Origin: a virus
Lineage: Duplodnaviria; Heunggongvirae; Uroviricota; Caudoviricetes
Strand: one strand, 5' to 3'
DNA length: 9,143 bases
Virus record (IMG/VR): IMGVR_UViG_2681813261_000008
Below, piece by piece: positions 1 to 9,143 of the stretch (its first letter is position 1; every line of letters begins with the position of its first letter). Below the pieces are notes generated by a model. It did no database searches and was not told where the DNA came from. It worked only from the letters and a program-made list of their open reading frames with translations. The position numbers were made by a program, and so were the translations under genes.

Positions 1-936
1 ATAATCCGGCGCAAGATGGGCATAAATCATCGTTGTCTGAATCTTTGCGTGCCCCAGAATTTTCTGGAGCGTCAGAATATTGCCGCCGTTCATCATGAAA
101 TGACTGGCGAAGGTGTGGCGCAGCGCATGAACAGCCTGGCCGTCAGGAACATCAGGTGCGACCGTTTTGATGACATCGCGAACCAATGAATAATCCAGCG
201 TCGGAAACACCAGTTTCCCGCCCCGTTTTTTGATCTTTTCAAACAGGCTTTCAGAAATAGGAACGGTACGGTTTTTGCTGTTCTTCGTTTTTGAAAAAGT
301 GATTCGACAATGAAGAACACGGCGCTGCTCCAGTGCCGCTACCTCGCCCCATCGCGCCCCGGTCGACAGAAGGATTTCGACGGCCAGCCGTTCATCGGGA
401 TTTTCAGCCAGTGCATCCAGCAACTGAACACATTCAGACTTACTCAGATATCCCATTTCACGCTCGTTAACCTTCATTCCTTTAAGGCCTTGAACGGGGT
501 TATCGTTAAGAAAATGGCCGGATGAGATGAGTGCGGTAAACATCGCGCTTAACGCCCCAATCTCTCGATTTATGGTGCTGGGCTGTATCCCCTGCTCTAT
601 CCTGGACACACGTAGCTCGGTGAGCATCGTTGTATTAAGTTTATGCACGCACGGGTCATCCATTGCCTCACTCAAGCGCAGCAATTTAAGGCGCGTGTTA
701 TGCCCTGACTTCATTAGCTGGCCGTGGTATTTCCACCACAAGTCAATAAGCACTGACAGCGGACGGCGATCAATGGAGTTTCCTTTCCACTCATTGTTAT
801 GCTGTTGCGCCAGCACCCACCGCTCATATAAAACTGCATCCGATTTCGTTTTAAATTTTTTGCGAATGCGTTTGCCTTTACGCCCCTCAGGACGCATGTC
901 AAGAAGATACCCTCCCGGAATTGATTTTATGCTCAT
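1..936 (-). CDS. int: Tyrosine site-specific integrase (phage integrase family), C-terminus runs off the window start
   Basis: Reverse-complement translation in the frame ending at nt 1 is open for 312 codons from ATG at 936-934: MSIKSIPGGYLLDMRPEGRKGKRIRKKF ... LLSTGARWGEVAALEQ ... AVHALRHTFASHFMMNGGNILTLQKILGHAKIQTTMIYAHLAPDY. It contains the ARWGE box and the HxLRHT ... LGH ... Y catalytic region typical of P2/186-type integrases. The ORF-track entries here (93..320 minus, 310..525 plus, 527..985 plus) are in other frames. The reading frame stays open upstream of 936, so the start is chosen by the family-typical MSIK N-terminus. Confidence 0.9.
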   Translation of the reverse strand, partial: MSIKSIPGGYLLDMRPEGRKGKRIRKKFKTKSDAVLYERWVLAQQHNNEWKGNSIDRRPLSVLIDLWWKYHGQLMKSGHNTRLKLLRLSEAMDDPCVHKLNTTMLTELRVSRIEQGIQPSTINREIGALSAMFTALISSGHFLNDNPVQGLKGMKVNEREMGYLSKSECVQLLDALAENPDERLAVEILLSTGARWGEVAALEQRRVLHCRITFSKTKNSKNRTVPISESLFEKIKKRGGKLVFPTLDYSLVRDVIKTVAPDVPDGQAVHALRHTFASHFMMNGGNILTLQKILGHAKIQTTMIYAHLAPDY

Positions 937-985
937 TCGTGAAGCCCCAGCGTTACAAGACCACCATGCCCCCAGCGTTCCATGA

Positions 986-1297
986 TTAGCCGGGCTGTGT
1001 GCCAGTCTTGCGGGATTTTTGAGAAGACGATGTGTTTTCTGGCCCATCAGGGGAGAGAGAAGGACTGATCTGCCCAGCAGCCTCATTTGTTTCGTTACTC
1101 ATCAACCACGTAGTGTATTTTTTAAATTCCGGGTGCATTGTGATTTTCAGTAAAACCTCCGTTCCCACACCTCGAATACCAGTCTCGTATTGCTTAACCG
1201 TACCAACCGCAATACCTATTGAATCCGCGAACTTTGCCTGACTAAGCCCCTCAGATTCTCGAATTGCTTTTAGCTTCTTTGATATCTCTATTGACAT
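986..1297 (-). CDS. CI-like repressor, XRE-family helix-turn-helix DNA-binding protein (about 103 aa)
   Basis: Minus-strand ORF 986..1399. Chosen start is the internal ATG at 1297-1295 (MSIEISKKLKAIRESEGLSQAKFADSIGIAVGTVKQYETG...), preceded by AGGTG. LSQAKFADSIGIAVGTVKQYE is a canonical XRE/Cro-CI HTH. It sits immediately upstream of int in the same orientation. Starting at 1399 would overlap the divergent gene at 1393. Confidence 0.75.
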   Translation of the reverse strand: MSIEISKKLKAIRESEGLSQAKFADSIGIAVGTVKQYETGIRGVGTEVLLKITMHPEFKKYTTWLMSNETNEAAGQISPSLSPDGPENTSSSQKSRKTGTQPG

Positions 1298-1320
1298 GGT
1301 GTGCACCTGAATACTATATT
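1291..1320 (+). promoter_or_regulatory. Candidate rightward early promoter: TTGACA (1291-1296), 18-bp spacer, TATATT (1315-1320), overlapping the repressor start codon
   Basis: Consensus -35 hexamer and a 5/6 -10 hexamer read directly on the plus strand. Position fits a face-to-face lysis/lysogeny switch as in P2/186. Not experimentally supported. Confidence 0.4.
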
Positions 1321-1388
1321 GGTTATCAGTTGAGTACCACTTGACGCTACAAAGAGCCACAAATAGCACCAGATTGAATAGGTTATCA
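1321..1388. repeat. Two exact copies of GGTTATCA (1321-1328 and 1381-1388) 60 bp apart in the repressor/early-operon switch region; candidate operator half-sites
   Basis: Exact 8-mer direct repeat inside a 95-bp intergenic region. The first copy lies just downstream of the candidate -10, the second just upstream of the ATG at 1393. Confidence 0.35.
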
Positions 1389-1392
1389 CACC

Positions 1393-1671
1393 ATGGCAAA
1401 AGTCCTTAACACATACGAACAAGCGGATTTTGAGCGTTTGGCGGCGTTCTACCCATACCGTAATGAACATGGGCTACCGGTACTTGAAGAAAGCCTAGAG
1501 GATTATGCGAAACGCACAAATCAAAGCATTCTCGCTGTAAGAAGGCAGGCTGATAGATCGGTAATTCCCGTTACTCAAGAAGGAAGAAACACAAAACGCA
1601 AAGTAAATCTCTTCGCAATTTTCCTGAAAACCATCAGAAACGCAGAGAAATACGTGCAGATGACAAAATAA
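1393..1671 (+). CDS. Hypothetical small protein (92 aa), first gene of the rightward operon; possible Cox/Xis/Cro-like DNA-binding protein
   Basis: ORF divergent from the repressor. The segment SLEDYAKRTNQSILAVRRQADRSVIPV loosely resembles excisionase/Cro-like HTH segments. No strong SD upstream of the ATG. Function is inferred from position only. Confidence 0.5.
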   Translation: MAKVLNTYEQADFERLAAFYPYRNEHGLPVLEESLEDYAKRTNQSILAVRRQADRSVIPVTQEGRNTKRKVNLFAIFLKTIRNAEKYVQMTK

Positions 1672-1685
1672 CGAGGTGTCATTTT

Positions 1686-2024
1686 ATGCTGAAGCAACGC
1701 CGTAATTTTTGTACCGGAACAGAACGCCACGCTAACCGTTTCACTACCAGTGCATCACGCAGCAACATCCGCTACAGCCTGAGTGATACACACGCAACGC
1801 CGGATGGCTACCCAGTAAAACAAATCGGCGAGCACGCCTGGCTGATTGAGAAAGCTGGAATCGTGATCCACAAATGCCCACGCAATCCGTTTACCGGAAA
1901 CCGCATTTTTGCACTGAGCTGTGGCGACAATCAGTTCGGGCAGGATTTCACATTATACGAAGCACTTCGCACGGTTGATCGTCTGCTTCGCGGGCAAAGT
2001 TTTATTAAACAGGCTGATTTATAA
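1686..2024 (+). CDS. Hypothetical protein (112 aa)
   Basis: ORF with SD GAGGTG (1673-1678) 7 nt upstream of ATG 1686. No recognisable motif. Confidence 0.55.
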   Translation: MLKQRRNFCTGTERHANRFTTSASRSNIRYSLSDTHATPDGYPVKQIGEHAWLIEKAGIVIHKCPRNPFTGNRIFALSCGDNQFGQDFTLYEALRTVDRLLRGQSFIKQADL

Positions 2025-2034
2025 CAGGTGCTTT

Positions 2035-2322
2035 ATGACCAAAGACAATGCACAAGGTGTATTTATCCGTTTTATTGATTTTCGCGGTGAACTGTTATTA
2101 CGTGCATCCGCTATTGACGGAGTGACTCCGGCGGGTAAAAACGGAGCCGACGAAGCCACTTACGTTTATCTGAACGGCACGCGACTGCTTGTGGAACTTC
2201 CGTACCAGACCGTACGAGAAATCATCAGCGAAGATGAAAAGGCACGCCAGGTTAATGGCGATGAACCCTATATCGAAATTATTTGTATGGATTCAGAAGC
2301 TGAAATACAGAAAGCAGATTAA
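2035..2322 (+). CDS. Hypothetical protein (95 aa)
   Basis: Internal ATG at 2035 of track ORF 1921..2322, chosen because it follows the stop of the upstream gene (2022-2024) and AGGTG at 2026-2030. The longer form would overlap the upstream gene by about 100 nt. Confidence 0.5.
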   Translation: MTKDNAQGVFIRFIDFRGELLLRASAIDGVTPAGKNGADEATYVYLNGTRLLVELPYQTVREIISEDEKARQVNGDEPYIEIICMDSEAEIQKAD

Positions 2323-2333
2323 AGGGCGTTGTG

Positions 2334-2645
2334 ATGGGCAAAGAATATAAAACTCTCATTAACAAAGCACTTGAGCGTTTTTATTTTCGCTTAAGTGCAT
2401 CAGGCGCTCATGCTGAACGTGCGGCCCGTGACTCATTGACCAGAGCAATCCGAAGTCTGTATGACGTGGCTTTTTACGCTGATGATCTGGATGCACTTAA
2501 CGAACTTTCCGAGCTGATCTGTGCCGCAGAATGCGGGGAACATATTGAACCGTATAAGCGGGAAATATCGCATGAGTATATTTATTTCATGGCTTGTTCT
2601 GATTATTTCGGTGGTCTGCGCCATTGGGATTATGCGAATTATTAA
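2334..2645 (+). CDS. Hypothetical protein (103 aa)
   Basis: ATG at 2334 preceded by AAAGGG (2321-2326). The track ORF starts at GTG 2331. No recognisable motif. Confidence 0.55.
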   Translation: MGKEYKTLINKALERFYFRLSASGAHAERAARDSLTRAIRSLYDVAFYADDLDALNELSELICAAECGEHIEPYKREISHEYIYFMACSDYFGGLRHWDYANY

Positions 2646-2679
2646 TTCAGTAAAAAAGATTGAACGCTTTTTCACTGAA
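2646..2679 (+). other. Inverted repeat / hairpin: TTCAGTAAAAAAG (2646-2658), 8-nt loop, CTTTTTCACTGAA (2667-2679), one mismatch
   Basis: Read directly. Lies immediately after the stop codon at 2643-2645. No downstream T-run, so not a canonical intrinsic terminator. Confidence 0.35.
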
Positions 2680-2771
2680 GAATAACCGCGCAAATAAGAC
2701 CCCAGGTTAAATAAGAAAATGTGAAAACAATCCGCATTCGCGGAGGTATTCGCACACGCCAAGGAGGCGTA

Positions 2772-2975
2772 ATGGCAATTAAGCATTTTCCTGTCGTTCG
2801 TTTCACCTCCAGAGGACGTGAATACGAAGTTGACGAACGCCTGATTACCACAATCGACAAACACCGTTCAGAAAAGGATGCACATCATATCTATCTCACT
2901 GACGGCACTTACTTCTGCGCCACCAACGTGGTGCAGGTGAATCTTATCAGACAGGTACAGGAGTCACGCAGATGA
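2772..2975 (+). CDS. Hypothetical small protein (67 aa)
   Basis: ATG at 2772 preceded by a strong SD AAGGAGG (2761-2767). The track ORF begins at GTG 2721 with no convincing SD. Stop overlaps the next start (ATGA at 2972-2975). Confidence 0.5.
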   Translation: MAIKHFPVVRFTSRGREYEVDERLITTIDKHRSEKDAHHIYLTDGTYFCATNVVQVNLIRQVQESRR

Positions 2976-3217
2976 CCATTCTGGACTACATCGCTGCCAA
3001 TCCGGGTTGTAGCAGTGGAGAAATCGCCGCAGCACTGAATACACCAACCACAACCATTAATGCGGAGCTACGCCGTCTCTGGCGCAGCGGTTTAGTCACA
3101 AGAAAAGAGCGCAAAACAGGCGGTCGCTTTTCTTATCAGGTAAACCTGATGCCGTTTGGGTGTAGCAACCCACTAACCCAGATGTTCAACCAGCTACTGA
3201 GGGAAATCAGAGCATGA
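2972..3217 (+). CDS. Putative winged-helix DNA-binding protein (81 aa)
   Basis: ORF with SD CAGGAG 8 nt upstream. The sequence DYIAANPGCSSGEIAAALNTPTTTINAELRRLWRSGLVTRKERKTGGRFSY has the helix-turn-helix plus beta-hairpin pattern of MarR/ArsR-like wHTH proteins (pattern recognition only). Confidence 0.5.
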   Translation: MTILDYIAANPGCSSGEIAAALNTPTTTINAELRRLWRSGLVTRKERKTGGRFSYQVNLMPFGCSNPLTQMFNQLLREIRA

Positions 3218-3358
3218 GCACCTCCAACTGCCGGAAACCACGTCGGGCTTCAGCAGCTCATCCGGCAGCAAAACAAACTCCATTAATTCCTGTTCCGGGC
3301 CTTTCCTGCACCTTGCGGCGGGAGGCCTTCGCACATCTGTAACAAGAGGATTGCCGCA

Positions 3359-3724
3359 ATGATTCTCGCCAACGACTTTCTTGAATACCTGCTCAACACA
3401 GAGCGTGATCTTGCCGCTCGCGTGCGTGATCGTTATGACATGTACCTGAAATCCCTGCCTGTACCGCAGCTCGCTGACGGAAAGATTGTTATTGATGGTC
3501 GCTACATGATTGACAGCCACGAGGGAAATTACAGGCTTTACCGCATTGAAGGTGGCACCCCGTCCGTTATTGGCATTTACCAGCGCCCATCCTCTGCAAT
3601 CGTCGATGTGATTGCCGACAGCATCCGCATCACACATCGCCATGCCGACACAGAAGACACCGTGCTGGAAATTCAGCGGCTGGCTACAGTCTGCCGCGAC
3701 ACCCTGAATGGCATGACGAAGTAA
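3359..3724 (+). CDS. Hypothetical protein (121 aa)
   Basis: ORF with SD AAGAGGA (3344-3350) 8 nt upstream of ATG 3359. Stop at 3722-3724 lies 6 nt before the gpA start. Confidence 0.55.
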   Translation: MILANDFLEYLLNTERDLAARVRDRYDMYLKSLPVPQLADGKIVIDGRYMIDSHEGNYRLYRIEGGTPSVIGIYQRPSSAIVDVIADSIRITHRHADTEDTVLEIQRLATVCRDTLNGMTK

Positions 3725-3730
3725 ATCACT

Positions 3731-6553
3731 ATGACGGCAGAGTACATCAGGGACTGGCAACAACCGCGCCACGCAGTGGGGCGTGAAGGAACGGGGATCC
3801 CCGCTCCTGAATCCGCGCTTTCCTCCTGGCTGGATGCCCACCGGGCAGAGAACGAGCGCCGCCAGGAAATGGCTGATGCGGCGTTCTCCGCCACGCCACT
3901 GGGCAACCTGATTAATAAAAGCCTGGACGCACAGGAAAAACAGGACAAAACCATCACACTGGCAGGAGACGCCAGAAAACAGGCACGCGGCGCGGTGGAT
4001 GAAGCCATGGCCTCGCTGCGCCTGCTGCCGTCCTATCTGCGCGATCCGCTTATTCGCCACCTCTCCTTCCTGCGCAAAAAACAGGAAGCCGATCGCCGGA
4101 AAGGCAAAAAGAGCTGGCAGGCGGAACGCTATGCACGCGGAACCCTGCGCAAAATATTCGAACGTCTGGATCGCACTGACGGACACTGGCTGACACCGGG
4201 TTATCGCTCCCTTGCCGGACGTGAACGCCTGGACGATTTGCTTTACCTGCCGCAACTCAACAAACACCAGATACAGACGCTGGCCACCATGACGGCGGCG
4301 ATGTTCAGCAGCACCTTCGAAAAACTCTGCGATGGTTTTGGCGCGACTGATGGCGAGCTGACCATGGATGTAACGCTGAAGGCGTATCAGATGCTGGCCC
4401 GCATGGCGTTACACTTACACGCCATGCCTCCGCATTATGACGCACTGACAACAGACAAAGACCGGAGGCACGAACCGGACACAGAACTGCTGCCGGGCGC
4501 AATCCTTCGCCTGACCTGTGCGGAATGGTGGAAACGCAAACTGTGGCTGTTACGTTGCGAGTGGAGAGAAGAACAACTTCGCGCCGCCTGTCTGGTTTCC
4601 AGAAAAACATCGCCCTATCTGAGCCAGGACGCGTTAAGCGAGTTTCGCGCACAGCGCGAGAAAACACGCGATTTCCTGAAAAGTTTCATGCTGGAAAATG
4701 AAGACGGGTTCACGATTGATCTCGAGACGGTGTATTACGCGGGAGTAAGTAACCCGGTTCACCGTAAGGCAGAAATGATGGCCACCATGAAGGGGCTGGA
4801 ACTTCTGGCCGAAGCCCGTGGCGACAAAGCGGTGTTTCTGACTGTCACCTGCCCGTCAAAATACCACGCCACAACGGAGAACGGTCATCCGAATCCCAAA
4901 TGGAACGGGGCCACAATGCGCGACTCCAGCGATTACCTGGTTAACACGTTTTTTGCGACGGTCCGCAAAAAACTGAACCGCGACGGCCTGCGCTGGTATG
5001 GCATCCGCACGGCGGAGCCTCACCATGACGGCACCGTGCACTGGCATATGATGGTCTTTGCTCATCCGGAAGAAATCGACACCATTGTGTCCCACACCCG
5101 CGATATTGCCATTCAGGAAGATCGTCACGAGCTGGGCGATGACATAACTCCGCGCTTTAAGGCGGAGTATGTAGACGGCTCAAAAGGCACGCCAACCAGC
5201 TACATCGCCACCTACATCGGGAAAAACCTGGACAGCCGCGCCGTGGATGGCATCGACCCGAAAACGGGCAAGCCACGCGTTGACCACGAAACCGGAAAAT
5301 CAATGGCCGAGAGCGTGGAACGCGCCATCGGCTGGGCGCGCCTTCACCGGGTCCGCCAGTTCCAGTTCTTTGGCATCCCCTCCCGCCAGGTATGGCGTGA
5401 ACTGCGCCGCCTTGCCAGCCAGATGGCACGCAACCCGGAAGGCCCGCAACGGCTGAAGGATGACGCAATGGATGCGGTTCTTGCCGCCGCTGATGCCGGA
5501 TGTTTTGCCACCTACATAGAGAAACAGGGCGGCGTACTTGTTCCACGCAAAGACTACCTGATTCGCACCGCCTACGACCTCGCCGATGAGCTGAACGATT
5601 ACGGCGAACAGAGCGTACAGATTTACGGGATCTGGTCACCACTCATCGGGGAATCCTCCCGTGTGTGCACGCATCCGGATAACTGGAAGCTGGTAAGACG
5701 CAAACCGGAAGCGGAAGACAGCGCCCGCGAAAATGGTTTTGACCTTCAGGGCGGCCCTGCCGCCCCTTGGACTCGTGGCAATAACTGTCCCCGTGTACAG
5801 GAAACGGACAACAACGGGACAGAACAGCCGGAAGAACGGCCAGCACCGTGGCCGCAGCTCCCTGACGGCGTTGATGTGGATGAATGGATGCGCTCACTGA
5901 AACGGCACGAACGCCGGGCGCTGATGCGTTCGCTTCGTGACAAACAGGCAAAAAACAGCAGTGATGAAATGCAGAGCTGGACACAGAGCCGCAAACAGCA
6001 GCGGCCTTTGCCTGATAACCACGAATTACTCGCTAAAGAATGGCGGGAGTCTGCTGAATCTCTCGGCCTGCATATCGGTGAACAACAGATGCAGCACCTG
6101 TTACGGGGCGGCAGTCTGTACGTTGACGGCAGCATCATTGCACCGCAGGGATTTGAAATTGTACGCAAACCGGATACCCGCCCGGACAGCCGAATCACGC
6201 AGCTCTGGCAGCGCCTGAGCCGTAATCATGGCGTAAGCAGCACGGAGATCCGCCATAACCCGGTCGCCAGCTATCTGACACAGCTGGGGGCATCAGACCC
6301 TGAAGCCGCCGCACGCCTGGCATCCACACTTCAGCAGGACCAGAACACCATGAAAACACCCGTTACCGTGCTTTCTGACATGCTGCGCGCCATCCGCGAC
6401 GCAGAGCACGCACAGAGAATCAGTGAAACCACTGAACGCGCCCGCCGCAAAGCAGACCTGCTGCGGGGTGGCCTGACCAGTGGAAACAAAAAACAGACAG
6501 AAACGGGACTCACGAATCCCGTAAATGAGCAAAAAACGCGCAGCGATATATGA
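3731..6553 (+). CDS. Rolling-circle replication initiator, P2 gpA-type replication endonuclease (HUH superfamily), 940 aa with a long C-terminal extension
   Basis: Long ORF containing an HUH motif (VHWHMMVF, codons 436-443) followed about 50 residues later by the paired-tyrosine motif SYIATYIGKNL (Y491 and Y495), as in phiX174/P2 gene A proteins. Sits at the end of the early operon as gene A does in P2. Weak SD, probably translationally coupled to the upstream gene. Confidence 0.85.
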   Translation: MTAEYIRDWQQPRHAVGREGTGIPAPESALSSWLDAHRAENERRQEMADAAFSATPLGNLINKSLDAQEKQDKTITLAGDARKQARGAVDEAMASLRLLPSYLRDPLIRHLSFLRKKQEADRRKGKKSWQAERYARGTLRKIFERLDRTDGHWLTPGYRSLAGRERLDDLLYLPQLNKHQIQTLATMTAAMFSSTFEKLCDGFGATDGELTMDVTLKAYQMLARMALHLHAMPPHYDALTTDKDRRHEPDTELLPGAILRLTCAEWWKRKLWLLRCEWREEQLRAACLVSRKTSPYLSQDALSEFRAQREKTRDFLKSFMLENEDGFTIDLETVYYAGVSNPVHRKAEMMATMKGLELLAEARGDKAVFLTVTCPSKYHATTENGHPNPKWNGATMRDSSDYLVNTFFATVRKKLNRDGLRWYGIRTAEPHHDGTVHWHMMVFAHPEEIDTIVSHTRDIAIQEDRHELGDDITPRFKAEYVDGSKGTPTSYIATYIGKNLDSRAVDGIDPKTGKPRVDHETGKSMAESVERAIGWARLHRVRQFQFFGIPSRQVWRELRRLASQMARNPEGPQRLKDDAMDAVLAAADAGCFATYIEKQGGVLVPRKDYLIRTAYDLADELNDYGEQSVQIYGIWSPLIGESSRVCTHPDNWKLVRRKPEAEDSARENGFDLQGGPAAPWTRGNNCPRVQETDNNGTEQPEERPAPWPQLPDGVDVDEWMRSLKRHERRALMRSLRDKQAKNSSDEMQSWTQSRKQQRPLPDNHELLAKEWRESAESLGLHIGEQQMQHLLRGGSLYVDGSIIAPQGFEIVRKPDTRPDSRITQLWQRLSRNHGVSSTEIRHNPVASYLTQLGASDPEAAARLASTLQQDQNTMKTPVTVLSDMLRAIRDAEHAQRISETTERARRKADLLRGGLTSGNKKQTETGLTNPVNEQKTRSDI

Positions 6554-6598
6554 AGCGCGCACAAAACAGGCAAAAACGGGATTTCAGAATCCCGTAAA
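6501..6598. repeat. Two copies of a 25-bp palindromic element, AAACGGGA-N9-TCCCGTAAA (6501-6525 and 6574-6598); candidate parC-like centromere or ParR operator, alternatively an origin element
   Basis: Copy 1 AAACGGGACTCACGAATCCCGTAAA lies in the last codons of gpA. Copy 2 AAACGGGATTTCAGAATCCCGTAAA lies in the gpA-parM intergenic region, overlapping a possible -35 (TTTCAG 6582-6587, 17-bp spacer, ATTAAT 6605-6610). Arms are identical; the spacers differ at 4 positions. Confidence 0.45.
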
Positions 6599-6629
6599 CG
6601 ATTAATTAATCAACATAAGGAAAAGCGAC

Positions 6630-7589
6630 ATGAAAATTTGTATCGACGACGGCTCCACCAACATCAAGCTGGCATGGACTGAGAACGGCGAACGCCGCAA
6701 CGCCATCAGCCCGAACAGCTTCAAGTCGGAATGGTCTGCGCCGTTCGGTGGCATGCAGCCCGCGAACTACATGCTTGATGGCGTGCGCTATGGTTTTGAT
6801 CCGGTCAGCGATCGCTTTGTCCAGACAACCGACACGCAATACCAGTACAGCGATGTAAATGTCATTGCCATTCATCACGCGCTGGTCAAATCAGGCATCA
6901 CGCCACAGGAGGTGGATGTGGTTGTCACCCTGCCACTGAGCGAGTATTTCGACACAAACGCACAGCCGGACATGGCCAACATCAACCGCAAAAAAGCGAA
7001 CGTTATGCGCCCGGTGGAGTACCAGAACGGCGAAGCATTCACTATCCGTAACGTGCGGGTTATGCCTGAATCCATTCCGGCTGGCTTTAAGGCACTGGCT
7101 GACATGAGTCCGTTTGAATCCCTGCTGATTGTGGATTTGGGCGGAACCACGCTGGATGTGGCAAAGGTTCAGGGGCAACTGGCAGGTATCAGCCAGGTGT
7201 TTTGCGATCCACACGTAGGCGTTTCTCTGATGGCCGATGCCGTACTGTCGGTGATGGCCACTAACGGTATGCGCACCAGTCACCACATCGCCAATACCAT
7301 TATCGAACATCGCCATGATGAAGCCTGGCTGCGCCAGCACATCCACAATGACGCGCATTACGCCAGCCTGATGGCGGTTATTCGTGAAAAGGAAGAAACA
7401 CTGAAACAACGCGTGATCCGCGCGCTGGCGGGTTTTTCGGGTTACGGGCGGGTGATGGTTGTCGGTGGAGGGGCGGAGATTGTGGCACCCGCTATCCGCG
7501 AAGCCTGCGGAGTTAATGCGACTTTCATCGCGGACGGGGTGCCACAGTTTGCTCTGGTTAATGGGCTGTACGCAATGGACAAGGAGTAA
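6630..7589 (+). CDS. parM: ParM/StbA-family actin-like segregation ATPase (type II partition), 319 aa
   Basis: N-terminus [31 protein letters not shown] is near-identical in pattern to plasmid R1 ParM as recalled from memory ([21 protein letters not shown]...HISPNSF). DDGSTNIK phosphate-1 motif, [11 protein letters not shown] phosphate-2-like motif and VVGGGAEI adenosine motif are present. SD AAGGA 8 nt upstream. Confidence 0.88.
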   Translation: [319 protein letters not shown]

Positions 7590-7593
7590 ACCA

Positions 7594-7905
7594 ATGACGA
7601 CACCAACCAGACGGATAAGTTTCTATCTGAAGCCTGCGGCCGTCAAGAACGAAAGCGAAGCATGCGCCTGGCTGGGCAGCCTTACACCAGAAGCCCGCAA
7701 AAGCGGCCAACGCGTGGCTTTTCTGGCCGGGCTGGCACTTCTGAAAATGAATCCAGCAGAGGCTTACCGACTGGCTGCATGGGCTGACGATGAGGCGTTA
7801 TCGGTGACACAAACCAGGACAGAACGCCCCGTGCCACAGCCAGTACCAACCGCACAGATAACCAGTCAGATAGCAGGGAATATCCGGGCATTATTTCCTG
7901 AATGA
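7594..7905 (+). CDS. parR: ParR/StbB-like centromere-binding adaptor (about 103 aa)
   Basis: Starts 5 nt after the parM stop with SD AAGGAG (7581-7585). RISFYLKPAAVKNESEACAWLGSLTPEARKSGQRVAFLAGLALL parallels the R1 ParR N-terminal ribbon-helix-helix region as recalled (TIAFKLNPDV...LDSIPQGERSRLNRAALTAGLALY). C-terminal IRALFPE resembles ILRSLFPKE. Track ORF 7459..7905 is an N-terminally over-extended version. Confidence 0.75.
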   Translation: MTTPTRRISFYLKPAAVKNESEACAWLGSLTPEARKSGQRVAFLAGLALLKMNPAEAYRLAAWADDEALSVTQTRTERPVPQPVPTAQITSQIAGNIRALFPE

Positions 7906-7965
7906 CGAATTTGACGGCTTTTAATTTTATCGGGGTGCACTGTCGCCCCGCACGAGGAAAACACG

Positions 7966-8490
7966 ATGAAAAAATACGAATACATGCTAATGAAAGAAGC
8001 ACTGCGGGCTGGTCTGGCTCCCTGTCCTGTATCCGTAGAAGCTGTTGTTGGGAACACGATTTTCCGAACGCTGCGAAATCGCGTATCCGTGAAGATGGTT
8101 CACCAACCACCCAAATCTACCAGCATGATCTATCTGCCGCTGCCCGAGGCTATCAAACTTATGCGTTCGCTGAAATTTGCGATTTGGATGCAGACACAAA
8201 TCAACAAAGCGGTGCAAAACACCTTCGTTAAGAGACTAATACCGGAGCTTGCTGCCAGATGTGCAAAATGTACCAGACCCGCACTTCAATTTGATCTGTC
8301 ATTGATTCAACAAGCTACGGAGGCAGAACTGTACCGCCTGTCACCTATCCGTGATGCTCACACGGAAGCATCAGAAATGTTCCGGCTCATGTTTCAATTT
8401 AATTTTGCCGTTCGACGCACACGCGTTCAGGTCAATCGCATGATGCAGGAGCAGGAAGAGTTAACACAGTACAAAGGGGGCAGCCAGTGA
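7966..8490 (+). CDS. Hypothetical protein (174 aa), first gene of a three-gene cluster
   Basis: ORF with SD GAGGA (7954-7958) 7 nt upstream. No family recognised. Stop overlaps the next start (GTGA at 8487-8490). Confidence 0.55.
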   Translation: MKKYEYMLMKEALRAGLAPCPVSVEAVVGNTIFRTLRNRVSVKMVHQPPKSTSMIYLPLPEAIKLMRSLKFAIWMQTQINKAVQNTFVKRLIPELAARCAKCTRPALQFDLSLIQQATEAELYRLSPIRDAHTEASEMFRLMFQFNFAVRRTRVQVNRMMQEQEELTQYKGGSQ

Positions 8491-8726
8491 GTAATTCAGC
8501 ACGACTACAGCTTGGTTTTTCACCGCTATCAAAAACCATCGTATTGGCAAAAATGCGTGACTTAGGAGACGGAACAAAACGCCGCGTAGGAAATGATCGC
8601 GGTCGCGATGTAACCAACGAGGCCGCTCAACTCGTTTGGCATCTAGTCATGGCAGAAGGCGGTGAAATTAATTGGGAGCTGGATGATGGTTCTCGTATGA
8701 TTTTGAGGGCCGAGAAGAGTAAATAG
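8487..8726 (+). CDS. Hypothetical protein (79 aa), GTG start coupled to the upstream gene
   Basis: GTG at 8487 overlapping the upstream stop, preceded by SD AAGGGGG (8474-8480). No recognisable motif. Confidence 0.45.
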   Translation: MSNSARLQLGFSPLSKTIVLAKMRDLGDGTKRRVGNDRGRDVTNEAAQLVWHLVMAEGGEINWELDDGSRMILRAEKSK

Positions 8727-8740
8727 CTCAAGGGGGATTA

Positions 8741-8926
8741 ATGCTAAATGATGATGAAGAAGAGCTGCTTATGCAGGAATGGTCGCTCGGTGATTATGAT
8801 AATGGTGAAAATGGGTGCCCGCATTGTGGCCGTTATCGTTTATGTATCTGCCAGAATGGAAAACACAGATGTGAAAAGTGCAATTGGTCTCCGGAACTTA
8901 ATGACTACGTGCCGATCGAGTGGTAG
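8741..8926 (+). CDS. Small acidic cysteine-rich protein (61 aa), putative zinc-ribbon
   Basis: ATG at 8741 preceded by AGGGGG (8731-8736). Six cysteines as CPHC-x5-CIC-x6-CEKC, with acidic N- and C-termini. Preferred over the overlapping 8748..8942 frame, whose product looks less protein-like. Confidence 0.45.
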   Translation: MLNDDEEELLMQEWSLGDYDNGENGCPHCGRYRLCICQNGKHRCEKCNWSPELNDYVPIEW

Positions 8927-8966
8927 AGGTAAGTCACACTAGGTGTTTTTTAGTTGATTTTATAAA

Positions 8967-8993
8967 TGCACAATAGTGCACAAATTTGCACAA
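8967..8993. repeat. Three TGCACAA repeats at exact 10-bp phasing (8967-8973, 8977-8983, 8987-8993) in an AT-rich tract; iteron-like
   Basis: Read directly: TGCACAATAG TGCACAAATT TGCACAATTT. One helical turn apart, as expected for a protein-binding iteron array. Confidence 0.5.
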
Positions 8994-9036
8994 TTTTTTT
9001 GAACGACTTTTTGCCCTTCCGGCCCGCGTGGCGGCT

Positions 9037-9090
9037 GGATCCGTCAAGGATCCGTGCATGCACAAAAAAACGCGTTTTTTCTGCGCGCAG
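9037..9090. repeat. Palindrome cluster: tandem GGATCCGT x2 (9037-9044, 9048-9055), GTGCATGCAC (9054-9063), AAAAAACGCGTTTTTT (9065-9080), CTGCGCGCAG (9081-9090)
   Basis: All are perfect palindromes or exact direct repeats read from the sequence, packed into about 55 bp immediately left of the IS1 end. Confidence 0.5.
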
Positions 9091-9095
9091 GTGAC

Positions 9096-9143
9096 GGTGA
9101 TGCTGCCAACTTACTGATTTAGTGTATGATGGTGTTTTTGAGG
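9096..9143 (+). mobile_element. IS1 left terminal inverted repeat and first 48 bp of the element; IS1 continues beyond the window
   Basis: GGTGATGCTGCCAACTTACTGATTTAGTGTATGATGGTGTTTTTGAGG matches the IS1 IRL (GGTGATGCTGCCAACTTACTGAT) and the sequence that follows it, as recalled from memory. insA would begin just beyond the window edge. Confidence 0.8.

What the first reader, a model, noticed from the sequence alone, without database searches (positions are those of the whole stretch)
1..7905. Phage-type lysogeny/replication module joined to a plasmid parMR partition cassette
The gene order (int, CI-like repressor, divergent early operon ending in a gpA-type rolling-circle initiator) is that of P2/186-family temperate phages. 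A ParM plus ParR cassette follows directly downstream of gpA; that is a low-copy plasmid feature, not one I know from P2-like prophages. No capsid, tail or lysis genes appear in 9 kb. This suggests an integrative element that can also persist as a partitioned episome, or a minimal satellite-like element; the left portion of such an element beyond the window is unseen.
Basis: partly seen in the sequence, partly recalled or inferred. Interest (0 to 1): 0.75.

Follow-up and report, generated by a model that had tools for sequence, protein, structure and literature searches.

The report
Ordinary P88-like prophage carrying parMR
The window is the left arm of a common, complete P2-type (P88-like) prophage of E. 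coli/Shigella. Its plasmid-style ParM/ParR cassette is a standard, already-noted feature of this phage group whose function has not been tested, so this is not a new hybrid or satellite element.

Summary
The gene calls are correct: integrase, C-type repressor, a divergent early operon ending in a 940-aa gpA initiator, then ParM and ParR. A public contig 99.98% identical to window 2-9097 runs straight on into P2-type portal, terminase, capsid, lysis and tail genes. A 99.3% relative is a 35-kb prophage between btuC and ihfA, flanked by a 25-bp direct repeat.

The same gpA-parM-parR order is present in phage P88 and in every other P88-like (Xuanwuvirus) record that matched. It is also found in 1308 of 5426 complete E. 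coli genomes, at 1454 chromosomal places against 2 on plasmids. More distant P2-type prophages of Plesiomonas, Hafnia, Serratia and Enterobacter carry it too. Rousset et al. 2022 already remarked that about a quarter of P2-like phages carry a putative partition system, perhaps for maintenance as plasmids.

The window ends in an IS1 terminus. New details from this work are strong purifying selection on parM, a candidate two-palindrome parC upstream of parM, and shuffling of parMR between unrelated gpA lineages. The most likely role, inferred only, is positioning or segregating the circular phage genomes present after infection or induction.

The parts
1..936 (-). Tyrosine integrase (int). The C-terminal ~14 aa are cut off by the window start.
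   Evidence: Pfam Int_N 1.4e-28 and Phage_integrase 9e-20. It corresponds to a 325-aa integrase annotated in NZ_CP074982 and in L016.
986..1297 (-). C/CI-type immunity repressor (103 aa, HTH_3), transcribed divergently from the early operon.
   Evidence: Pfam HTH_3 2.1e-09. RefSeq annotates the same 103-aa CDS in relatives.
1291..1320 (+). Candidate early promoter (Pe-like): TTGACA, 18-nt spacer, TATATT.
   Evidence: The best sigma-70-like match in the window, 11 of 12 positions. It sits in the divergent repressor/early-operon gap. A consensus match only.
1393..1671 (+). First early gene (92 aa), at the position of Cox/Apl. Function not assigned.
   Evidence: PHROG 11533, 4e-53, over the full length. 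No Pfam hit, so it is not Phage_Cox by profile.
1686..3724 (+). Small early-operon genes: DUF4761 (1686-2024), 95 aa (2035-2322), DUF4754 (2331-2645), 67 aa (2772-2975), MarR-like winged HTH (2972-3217), 121 aa (3359-3724).
   Evidence: Pfam DUF4761 9.6e-68, DUF4754 3.9e-50, MarR_2 8.8e-09. Every one matches a PHROG phage family. The order is the same as in P88.
3731..6553 (+). gpA-type HUH rolling-circle replication initiator (940 aa).
   Evidence: Pfam Phage_GPA 6.6e-131. HWH and YIATY motifs are visible in the translation. dN/dS is about 0.10 against relatives.
6487..6601 (.). Candidate parC: two copies of a 42-nt repeat, 73 bp apart. Each holds the palindrome AAACGGGA-N7-ATCCCGTAAA (6501-6525 and 6574-6598). 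The first copy lies inside the gpA 3' end.
   Evidence: 2 matches against 0.01 expected. The core YGGG-N10-CCCR occurs only here in the window. It lies at the same offsets from the parM ATG in Plesiomonas and Hafnia prophages. It is absent from the parMR-less phage RE-2010. Binding was not tested.
6630..7589 (+). ParM, the actin-like ATPase of a type II partition system (319 aa).
   Evidence: Pfam StbA_N 2.7e-82 and ParM C-terminal domain 1.3e-68. R1 ParM PDB 1mwk E 8.5e-93, with phosphate and adenosine motifs conserved. dN/dS 0.03-0.15.
7594..7905 (+). ParR, the centromere-binding adaptor (103 aa).
   Evidence: Pfam Plasmid_stab_B 5e-23. Orthologues share the N-terminal RRISFYLKP strand and following helix, and a C-terminal N-x3-LFP tail. 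dN/dS 0.22-0.39.
7966..8926 (+). Variable cargo in the gpA-gpQ hotspot: an orphan 174-aa ORF (7966-8490), a DUF7446/ead-like ORF (8487-8726), and a 61-aa zinc-ribbon ORF (8741-8926).
   Evidence: Pfam, PHROG and PADLOC searches. The orphan has only 8 homologue clusters in 5.8 billion proteins. The hotspot is defined in PMC9122126.
9096..9143 (+). Terminal inverted repeat of an IS1 element inserted in the cargo region. The window ends inside it.
   Evidence: Identity with the IS-free sibling contig L016 stops at 9097. The 48-nt end matches more than 5000 plasmid records. In a matching record it is followed by InsA (HTH_Tnp_IS1 1.5e-29).

Best explanation
The window is the left arm of a complete, integrated P88-like (genus Xuanwuvirus, family Peduoviridae) P2-type temperate prophage of E. 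coli/Shigella. The window start cuts it inside int, and an IS1 insertion cuts it at 9096. I put this identity at 0.95 or higher.

parM-parR is an intact type II (R1-like, actin-type) partition cassette. It sits at the left edge of the known gpA-gpQ variable hotspot and is kept by purifying selection. I put a functional ParMRC machine at about 0.75.

The proposed mechanism is inferred, not shown. ParR dimers bind the two palindromes upstream of parM (the candidate parC). ATP-ParM filaments capture the ParR-parC complexes and push circular phage genomes apart. No plus-strand terminator or strong promoter was found between gpA and parM, so the cassette is probably read through from the early operon. 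It would then be made after infection or induction, when gpA produces monomeric circles. In that case it spaces or segregates the transient extrachromosomal circles, helping replication, packaging or lysogenisation in dividing cells. It would not be supporting a stable plasmid lifestyle. I put this at about 0.5. The precedents are AlpAC of prophage CGP3 and SrpMRC of ICE R391.
For: Identity:
- Window 2-9097 is 99.978% identical to contig L016, which continues into portal, terminase, capsid, lysis and tail genes.
- It is 99.3% identical to a 35-kb prophage between btuC and ihfA with 25-bp att repeats.
- It is 96% identical to phage P88 over 1722-9097, with the same gene order.

Prevalence:
- 1308 of 5426 E. 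coli genomes carry the cassette, at 1454 chromosomal places against 2 on plasmids.
- Rousset et al. made the same remark in 2022.

An intact partition machine:
- Pfam and PDB matches.
- ParR keeps the conserved N-terminal strand and helix and the C-terminal tail.
- dN/dS for parM is 0.03-0.15 and for parR 0.22-0.39.

Candidate parC:
-, with the negative control.
- Lineage-specific repeats lie at the same place in Serratia and Enterobacter prophages and in phage-plasmid D6.

The same slot in diverged P2-type prophages.

No plus-strand terminator or strong promoter between gpA and parM.

Precedents: PMC4446434 and PMC4489591.
Against: - Nothing here shows that parMR is expressed, that ParR binds the palindromes, or that ParM acts on phage DNA.
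- Two palindromes 73 bp apart are unlike the ten 11-bp iterons I recall for R1 parC (from memory). The ~13-bp half-site spacing is not obviously that of a ribbon-helix-helix protein.
- The hairpins also score as minus-strand terminator-like sites.
- P2, 186 and most of the 382 phage records with a gpA homologue manage without parMR, so the cassette is not essential to the P2 lifestyle.
- One 34.5-kb circular 'plasmid' record is a whole P88-like genome. That leaves room for a real plasmid state.
Confidence: 0.85

Rival explanations
1. Dual lifestyle. P88-like phages can lysogenise either by integration or as a stably partitioned low-copy plasmid prophage, and parMR serves the plasmid state.
For: - The canonical role of ParMRC is low-copy plasmid segregation, and the cassette is intact and under selection.
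- pZ1323PEC0009-2 (NZ_CP148288.1) is a 34,461-bp circular record holding a whole P88-like genome.
- A 10.5-kb stretch of it (int to parR) is 100% identical to a copy integrated in the chromosome of another strain from the same series.
- PMC9122126 proposes this reading.
Against: - The count is 1454 chromosomal places against 2 on plasmids in complete E. coli genomes.
- The other 'plasmid' or 'phage' records I inspected are not episomes. One is a linear contig of an IS1-ridden prophage, and one is a linear prophage excerpt carrying the host gene yecA. The four plasmid-labelled records of 228 kb to 1.4 Mb are far larger than a phage genome, so the element would be integrated in them; I did not open them.
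- The integrase and att repeats are intact.
- The only replication initiator seen is gpA. By established P2 biology it lies in the repressor-controlled early operon. No plasmid-type Rep gene is annotated in P88.
- The circular record could equally be an excised replicative form captured by long-read assembly.
Confidence: 0.15
2. A minimal satellite-like or defective integrative element that has a replication and partition module but no virion genes.
For: No structural gene lies in the 9.1-kb window. The window ends in an IS1, so the DNA beyond it in this genome is unseen.
Against: - The IS-free sibling contig (99.978% identical) runs on into a full P2-type morphogenesis and lysis module about 320 bp past the IS1 site.
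- All relatives do the same.
- No satellite hallmark genes were found.
- P88 and phiSM are inducible, plaque-forming phages (PMC5285337, PMC6456863).
Confidence: 0.02
3. parMR is hotspot cargo used as a weapon. It would destabilise plasmids or rival P2-like phages that use a related parC (incompatibility or exclusion), rather than serving the phage's own DNA.
For: - It lies in the gpA-gpQ hotspot that holds anti-phage systems. Neighbouring cargo in relatives includes a KAP NTPase and HicAB.
- parMR has been exchanged between unrelated gpA lineages. Serratia and Enterobacter ParM are 74% identical while their gpA proteins are 31% identical.
- parR occurs as alternative alleles.
Against: - No PADLOC defence model matches.
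- The full ParM ATPase, the ParR tail and cis repeats in the phage's own DNA are all retained, which fits self-directed partition.
- parMR is always the first unit after the gpA region, whereas true cargo varies.
- The phage ParMs cluster apart from plasmid and ICE ParMs in a rough NJ tree.
Confidence: 0.08
4. A decaying relic of a past phage-plasmid recombination, with no present function.
For: P2, 186 and most phages with a gpA homologue lack it.
Against: - The reading frames are intact in every relative examined.
- parM dN/dS of 0.03-0.15 is as low as that of gpA.
- The cassette is retained down to 54% amino-acid identity across five genera.
Confidence: 0.03

Closest known systems
Escherichia phage P88 and other Xuanwuvirus (Peduoviridae) phages, e.g. 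Citrobacter phage phiSM
   Same: Same order: early operon, gpA, ParM, ParR, cargo, portal. Identity is 96% over window 1722-9097 and ParM is 99.7% identical. These are inducible, plaque-forming P2-like phages.
   Different: - The int, repressor and first early gene (window 1-1721) are a different module from P88's; there is no megablast match.
- The window lacks the ~2-kb accessory block that P88 has between the MarR-like gene and the 121-aa ORF.
- The hotspot cargo differs.
- This copy carries an IS1 insertion and a 1-bp indel in the DUF4754 gene.
ParMRC of plasmid R1 (type II partition)
   Same: ParM aligns over its full length with solved R1 ParM (E 8.5e-93), with the nucleotide-binding motifs conserved. 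ParR belongs to the same Pfam family (StbB) and is encoded directly downstream. Repeats lie upstream of parM.
   Different: - It resides in an integrating tailed phage, downstream of a rolling-circle initiator.
- The candidate centromere is two 18-bp-core palindromes 73 bp apart, not two blocks of five 11-bp iterons (R1 architecture recalled from memory).
- It probably has no strong promoter of its own.
AlpAC/alpS of Corynebacterium glutamicum prophage CGP3 (PMC4446434)
   Same: An actin-like ATPase and a DNA-binding adaptor are encoded by an integrated prophage. They are induced early after excision. The adaptor binds upstream of its own operon and ties circular phage DNA to the filaments. 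The system is needed for efficient phage replication.
   Different: AlpC is only a distant actin-like protein, in a Gram-positive host and an unrelated prophage. The gene order there is adaptor first. Homology with the window's genes was not tested here.
SrpMRC of SXT/R391 integrative conjugative elements (PMC4489591)
   Same: An integrative element whose excised circle replicates by a rolling-circle (relaxase) mechanism and is stabilised by a ParMRC-like system.
   Different: That is a conjugative element, not a phage. SrpM and SrpR are only distantly related to R1 ParM and ParR, whereas the window's ParM is close to R1.
Phage-plasmid D6 (P1-like) StbA/ParM
   Same: It is the only other phage record with a ParM homologue (47.8% identity). 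Its annotation notes similarity to P88 StbA. Iterated repeats lie upstream of its parM.
   Different: D6 is a true plasmid prophage of 91 kb. The window's phage is integrative.

Membership tests
P2-like temperate phages (Peduoviridae; P88-like/Xuanwuvirus) | A lysogeny and early module of int, C-type repressor and a divergent early operon ending in gpA | tested here: met
   Pfam hits and gene order. Same order as P88.
P2-like temperate phages (Peduoviridae; P88-like/Xuanwuvirus) | A contiguous P2-type morphogenesis and lysis module (Q, P, O, N, M, L, X, holin, tail genes, ogr) | tested here: met
   Not in the window itself. It is present in the 99.978% identical contig L016 and in NZ_CP074982. 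The DNA beyond the IS1 in the source genome is unseen.
P2-like temperate phages (Peduoviridae; P88-like/Xuanwuvirus) | Genus-level nucleotide similarity to P88 over the whole genome | tested here: inconclusive
   Identity is 96.3% over 69% of the window. The whole genome of this copy is not available, and the int/immunity module differs.
P2-like temperate phages (Peduoviridae; P88-like/Xuanwuvirus) | Integrated state bounded by att direct repeats | tested here: met
   The 25-bp repeat AAAGAAAAAAGGCCGCAGAGCGGCC flanks the 35.1-kb prophage between btuC and ihfA in the 99.3% relative. attL lies outside the window.
Type II ParMRC partition system | Actin-fold ATPase ParM with intact nucleotide-binding motifs | tested here: met
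   StbA_N 2.7e-82 and ParM C-terminal domain 1.3e-68. 1mwk E 8.5e-93, with [14 protein letters not shown] and GGGAE conserved.
Type II ParMRC partition system | ParR adaptor encoded immediately downstream, with an N-terminal DNA-binding region and a C-terminal ParM-binding tail | tested here: met
   Plasmid_stab_B 5e-23. The N-terminus and the N-x3-LFP tail are conserved across five lineages and an alternative allele. The fold and the ParM contact were not tested. No PDB sequence match.
Type II ParMRC partition system | A parC centromere of repeated ParR sites next to the operon | tested here: inconclusive
   Two palindromic repeats lie at -126 and -53 from the parM start. They are conserved in position in three lineages and absent from a parMR-less control. 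The architecture differs from R1, and binding cannot be tested here.
Type II ParMRC partition system | Stabilises a replicon in vivo | not testable with these tools
   Needs a plasmid-stability assay.
gpA/HUH rolling-circle initiators | Phage_GPA domain with an HUH metal-binding motif and paired catalytic tyrosines | tested here: met
   Phage_GPA 6.6e-131. VHWHMMV and SYIATYIGK can be read in the translation. The roles of the motifs come from knowledge of P2 A protein, recalled from memory.
Phage-plasmids | The lysogen keeps the phage as an extrachromosomal replicon | tested here: not met
   1454 chromosomal places against 2 on plasmids. One circular 34.5-kb record exists. The two other candidate records I opened are not episomes.
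Phage-plasmids | A plasmid-type replication initiator or origin besides the lytic replicon | tested here: not met
   None in the window and none in the P88 annotation.
Phage satellites (P4-like, PICI-like) | Lacks virion structural genes and carries helper-hijacking genes | tested here: not met
   The full structural module lies directly downstream in the sibling contig. No satellite-type gene was found by Pfam or PHROGs.

The most novel reading that the evidence does not exclude
The ParMRC of P88-like phages is a phage-cycle DNA-positioning machine with a minimal two-palindrome centromere. It would act on the monomeric circles made by gpA, improving replication, packaging or lysogenisation, or sustaining a carrier state. 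That would make it the first functional type II partition system shown in an integrating tailed phage of Gram-negative bacteria, and it is present in about a quarter of E. coli genomes.
Probability: 0.45. Interest if true: 0.5.

Novelty: already known. Interest (0 to 1): 0.2.

Why it matters
As a discovery it matters little. The element is a common, sequenced and annotated phage type, and its partition cassette has been noted in print.

What remains open is function. An intact, selected ParMRC sits in the chromosomes of about 24% of complete E. coli genomes, including O157:H7, O104:H4 and ST131 strains. Nobody appears to have tested what it does for an integrating phage. The candidate parC and the available inducible phages (P88, phiSM) make that directly testable.

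Tried and rejected
- **Satellite or defective-element reading.** Rejected after I recovered the IS-free sibling contig and the relatives.
- **Extra episomal records.** Phage 520873 (a CP accession) is a linear prophage excerpt with the host gene yecA. The Shigella boydii 26.7-kb 'plasmid' is a linear, IS1-ridden prophage fragment. Only pZ1323PEC0009-2 remains as a candidate episome. I could not check whether that strain's chromosome also holds the phage; the search found an identical copy only in another strain's chromosome.
- **parMR as a strictly vertical core trait co-diverging with gpA.** Rejected, because gpA and ParM identities are incongruent.
- **The palindromes as a gpA or ori feature.** Disfavoured, because the parMR-less relative RE-2010 has none at its gpA 3' end. 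As plus-strand terminators they lack a T-run; on the minus strand they look terminator-like. However, the arms are conserved in sequence rather than covarying, and in Plesiomonas they would pair over only 4 bp.
- **Defence-system reading of parMR and the cargo.** No PADLOC hits.
- **ParR against PDB sequences.** No match.
- **Rfam.** No RNA family in the window.
- **Genome-collection scan with ParM alone.** It returned only near-identical loci. Distant contexts came instead from protein search plus contig look-ups.
- **tRNA scan.** None found.

Full report
**1. What is in the window**

- On the minus strand, a tyrosine integrase runs from 936 off the left end (Int_N 1.4e-28, Phage_integrase 9e-20). 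A 103-aa HTH_3 repressor lies at 986-1297.
- A strong sigma-70-like site (TTGACA, 18 nt, TATATT, at 1291-1320) faces a plus-strand operon.
- That operon holds a 92-aa gene at the Cox/Apl position, then DUF4761, a 95-aa gene, DUF4754, a 67-aa gene, a MarR-like winged-helix gene and a 121-aa gene. Every one matches a phage PHROG family.
- The operon ends in a 940-aa gpA (Phage_GPA 6.6e-131). Its HUH motif (HWHMMV) and paired tyrosines (YIATY) are readable in the translation.
- After a 76-bp gap come ParM at 6630-7589 (StbA_N 2.7e-82, ParM C-terminal domain 1.3e-68) and ParR at 7594-7905 (Plasmid_stab_B 5e-23).
- ParM aligns end to end with solved R1 ParM (1mwk, E 8.5e-93), with the phosphate-binding and adenosine-binding motifs conserved.

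**2. What the element is**

The window is not an unusual hybrid.

- Megablast against phage records gives Escherichia phage P88 and the other P88-like phages (genus Xuanwuvirus, family Peduoviridae). Identity is 92-97% over window 1722-9097.
- The P88 annotation shows the same run of gpA, ParM, partition protein, a few small genes, then portal, terminase and the full P2-type virion, lysis and tail modules.
- The best E. coli chromosome (NZ_CP074982, 99.3%) carries the same int, repressor, early operon, gpA, ParM and ParR. P2-type structural genes begin 1.6 kb after ParR.
- In that genome the prophage is 35.1 kb and lies between btuC and ihfA. It is flanked by the 25-bp direct repeat AAAGAAAAAAGGCCGCAGAGCGGCC.
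- The orphan gene at 7966-8490 led to a public contig, L016, whose protein a source names Shigella sonnei. It matches window 2-9097 with one mismatch and one 1-bp gap (99.978%). It then continues into portal, terminase, scaffold, capsid, small terminase, head completion, lysis and tail genes.

The window diverges from L016 at 9097 because it ends in the terminal repeat of an IS1. That 48-nt end occurs in more than 5000 plasmid records, and in a matching record it is followed by InsA. So structural genes lie just outside the window, and the satellite or minimal-element reading is refuted.

**3. How common parMR is at this position**

- The stretch 6480-7905 occurs at 90% identity or more in 1308 of 5426 complete E. 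coli genomes. That is 1454 chromosomal places against 2 on plasmids.
- Among 50,697 phage records, ParM homologues occur only in the 14 P88-like records and in phage-plasmid D6 (47.8% identity). By contrast 382 records hold a gpA homologue. The cassette is therefore specific to one clade of sequenced P2-like phages, though it is very common in E. coli chromosomes.
- A protein search shows a gap between the P88-like ParMs (92% identity or more) and the next relatives (63% or less). The next relatives come from Plesiomonas (63%), Hafnia (62%), Serratia (58%) and Enterobacter (54%). All lie in the same slot of P2-type prophages: gpA, zero to two small ORFs, ParM, ParR, variable cargo, portal.
- At about 50% identity the contexts change. 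One is a locus with conjugative-transfer genes (TraG, TraU) and an integrase in a Dickeya chromosome. Another is a plasmid-type backbone (Rep3, ParA/ParB) in a Mangrovibacter chromosome.
- A rough neighbour-joining tree without bootstraps groups the phage ParMs apart from the plasmid and ICE ones.

The literature already records this. Rousset et al. 2022 analysed the gpA-gpQ hotspot of E. coli P2-like prophages. [quoted passage not shown] The P88 paper and the Citrobacter rodentium phiSM paper describe these phages (phiSM's partition gene is listed) without studying partition. I found no functional study.

**4. Is the cassette functional?**

Against close relatives, parM has dN/dS of 0.03-0.15. 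That compares with about 0.10-0.12 for gpA and 0.22-0.39 for parR, and no relative has a stop codon in these genes.

ParR orthologues from five lineages, and a divergent allele in E. albertii, share three features:

- an N-terminal RRISFYLKP strand followed by a helix;
- a variable linker;
- a C-terminal N-x3-LFP tail.

This layout matches what I recall for R1 ParR, a ribbon-helix-helix N-terminus with a ParM-binding C-terminal peptide. The comparison is from memory and is not tested here.

Upstream of parM a 42-nt repeat occurs twice, 73 bp apart. Each copy holds AAACGGGA-N7-ATCCCGTAAA, at 6501-6525 (inside the gpA 3' end) and at 6574-6598. That is 2 matches where 0.01 are expected, and there are only two in the whole P88 genome.

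- The core YGGG-N10-CCCR occurs nowhere else in the window.
- It lies at -126/-53, -132/-60 and -129/-56 from the parM start in the P88-like, Plesiomonas and Hafnia lineages respectively. Its background density is about 0.1 per kb.
- The arms are conserved in sequence while the centres vary. This is the pattern of a protein-binding site rather than of a hairpin.
- A parMR-less relative, Salmonella phage RE-2010, has no such motif near its gpA 3' end.
- Serratia and Enterobacter prophages and phage-plasmid D6 have their own repeats at the same place.

I therefore call 6487-6601 a candidate parC. Binding is untested, and the architecture differs from my recollection of R1 parC.

**5. Likely mechanism**

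No plus-strand terminator and no strong promoter were found between gpA and parM. The cassette is therefore probably transcribed with the early operon. By established P2 biology that operon is repressed in lysogens and active after infection or induction.

At that stage gpA-driven replication yields circular monomers, which are plasmid-like molecules. This is P2 knowledge recalled from memory.

The best-supported model is that ParR-parC complexes on these circles are pushed apart by ParM filaments. This would space or segregate the transient extrachromosomal genomes. Two documented precedents exist:

- AlpAC of prophage CGP3, an actin-like filament plus adaptor needed for efficient replication of the excised circle (PMC4446434);
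- SrpMRC of ICE R391, a ParMRC-like system that stabilises the excised, rolling-circle-replicating form (PMC4489591).

All of this is inference.

**6. Rivals**

- **Stable plasmid-prophage state.** It cannot be excluded. pZ1323PEC0009-2 is a 34,461-bp circular record that holds a whole P88-like genome. A 10.5-kb stretch of it (int to parR) is 100% identical to a copy integrated in another strain's chromosome. Against this, chromosomal copies outnumber plasmid copies 1454 to 2. The two other candidate episome records I opened turned out to be linear prophage fragments. The integrase and att sites are intact, and no plasmid-type replicon is present.
- **Weapon or incompatibility role.** This is suggested by the hotspot location and by horizontal shuffling: Serratia and Enterobacter ParMs are 74% identical while their gpA proteins are 31% identical. 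However, no defence model matches, and the self-directed cis sites argue against it.
- **Relic.** This is contradicted by the selection data.

**7. Verdict**

The element and the presence of parMR in it are already known. Only the function of parMR in these phages is open.

Noticed in passing
window 9096-9143: The window ends in the terminal inverted repeat of an IS1 element, inserted in the cargo region about 320 bp before the portal gene's stop codon. The otherwise identical contig L016 has no insertion there.
   Followed up: yes
window 7966-8490: An orphan 174-aa ORF sits in the gpA-gpQ hotspot. It has no Pfam, PHROG or PADLOC match, and only 8 homologue clusters among 5.8 billion proteins (one source names it Shigella sonnei). 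Its central part (about 8048-8470) had no megablast match in the complete E. coli genomes listed. Its position suggests an accessory or defence gene.
   Followed up: partly
window about 2335-2972 (DUF4754 gene, 2331-2645): There is a 1-bp indel relative to L016 and to the other relatives. It extends the DUF4754 ORF from 80 to 104 aa and removes the 37-aa ORF that follows it in relatives. This is either a real frameshift or a sequencing error.
   Followed up: partly
window 1-1721 and 3218-3358: The element is a mosaic. The int, repressor and first early gene have no megablast match to P88, whose module carries a Phage_Cox gene. The window also lacks the ~2-kb accessory block that P88 has between the MarR-like gene and the 121-aa ORF. 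Relatives annotate a pseudogene remnant at about 3243-3362.
   Followed up: partly
window 7594-7905 (break near 7648): parR exists as alternative alleles. In many E. coli, including O157:H7, O104:H4 and ST131 strains, DNA identity stops about 55 nt into parR. The E. albertii allele keeps the N-terminus and the C-terminal tail but has a different linker.
   Followed up: partly
L007, L008, L010, L011 compared with window 3731-7589: gpA and ParM similarities are incongruent. Serratia and Enterobacter ParM are 74% identical but their gpA proteins 31%. Window and Hafnia ParM are 62% identical but gpA 33%. The parMR module has therefore been exchanged between deeply different gpA lineages while keeping the same slot.
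   Followed up: partly
L003 (NZ_CP148288.1, whole record): A 34,461-bp circular 'plasmid' of an E. coli isolate from a cat is a complete P88-like phage genome with int at the junction. It is either an excised replicative form or a plasmid state. The host chromosome could not be checked.
   Followed up: partly
L005 (NZ_JBQPOM010000071.1): A 226-kb contig labelled Vagococcus sp. carries a ParM 98% identical to the window's and an 89-94% identical gpA-parM-parR stretch. This is probably contamination or a mislabelled assembly.
   Followed up: no
window 3731-6553: gpA is 940 aa, against 785-907 aa in the four other parMR-bearing prophages compared here. The Pfam domain covers only residues 179-503. 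The long, charged C-terminal region is unassigned, and its last codons overlap the first parC-like palindrome.
   Followed up: no
L013 793-1831 (outside the window, left of int): Relatives carry two extra genes between attL and int: a DUF1640 protein and a 166-aa hypothetical protein. They are probably cargo at the prophage's left end.
   Followed up: no
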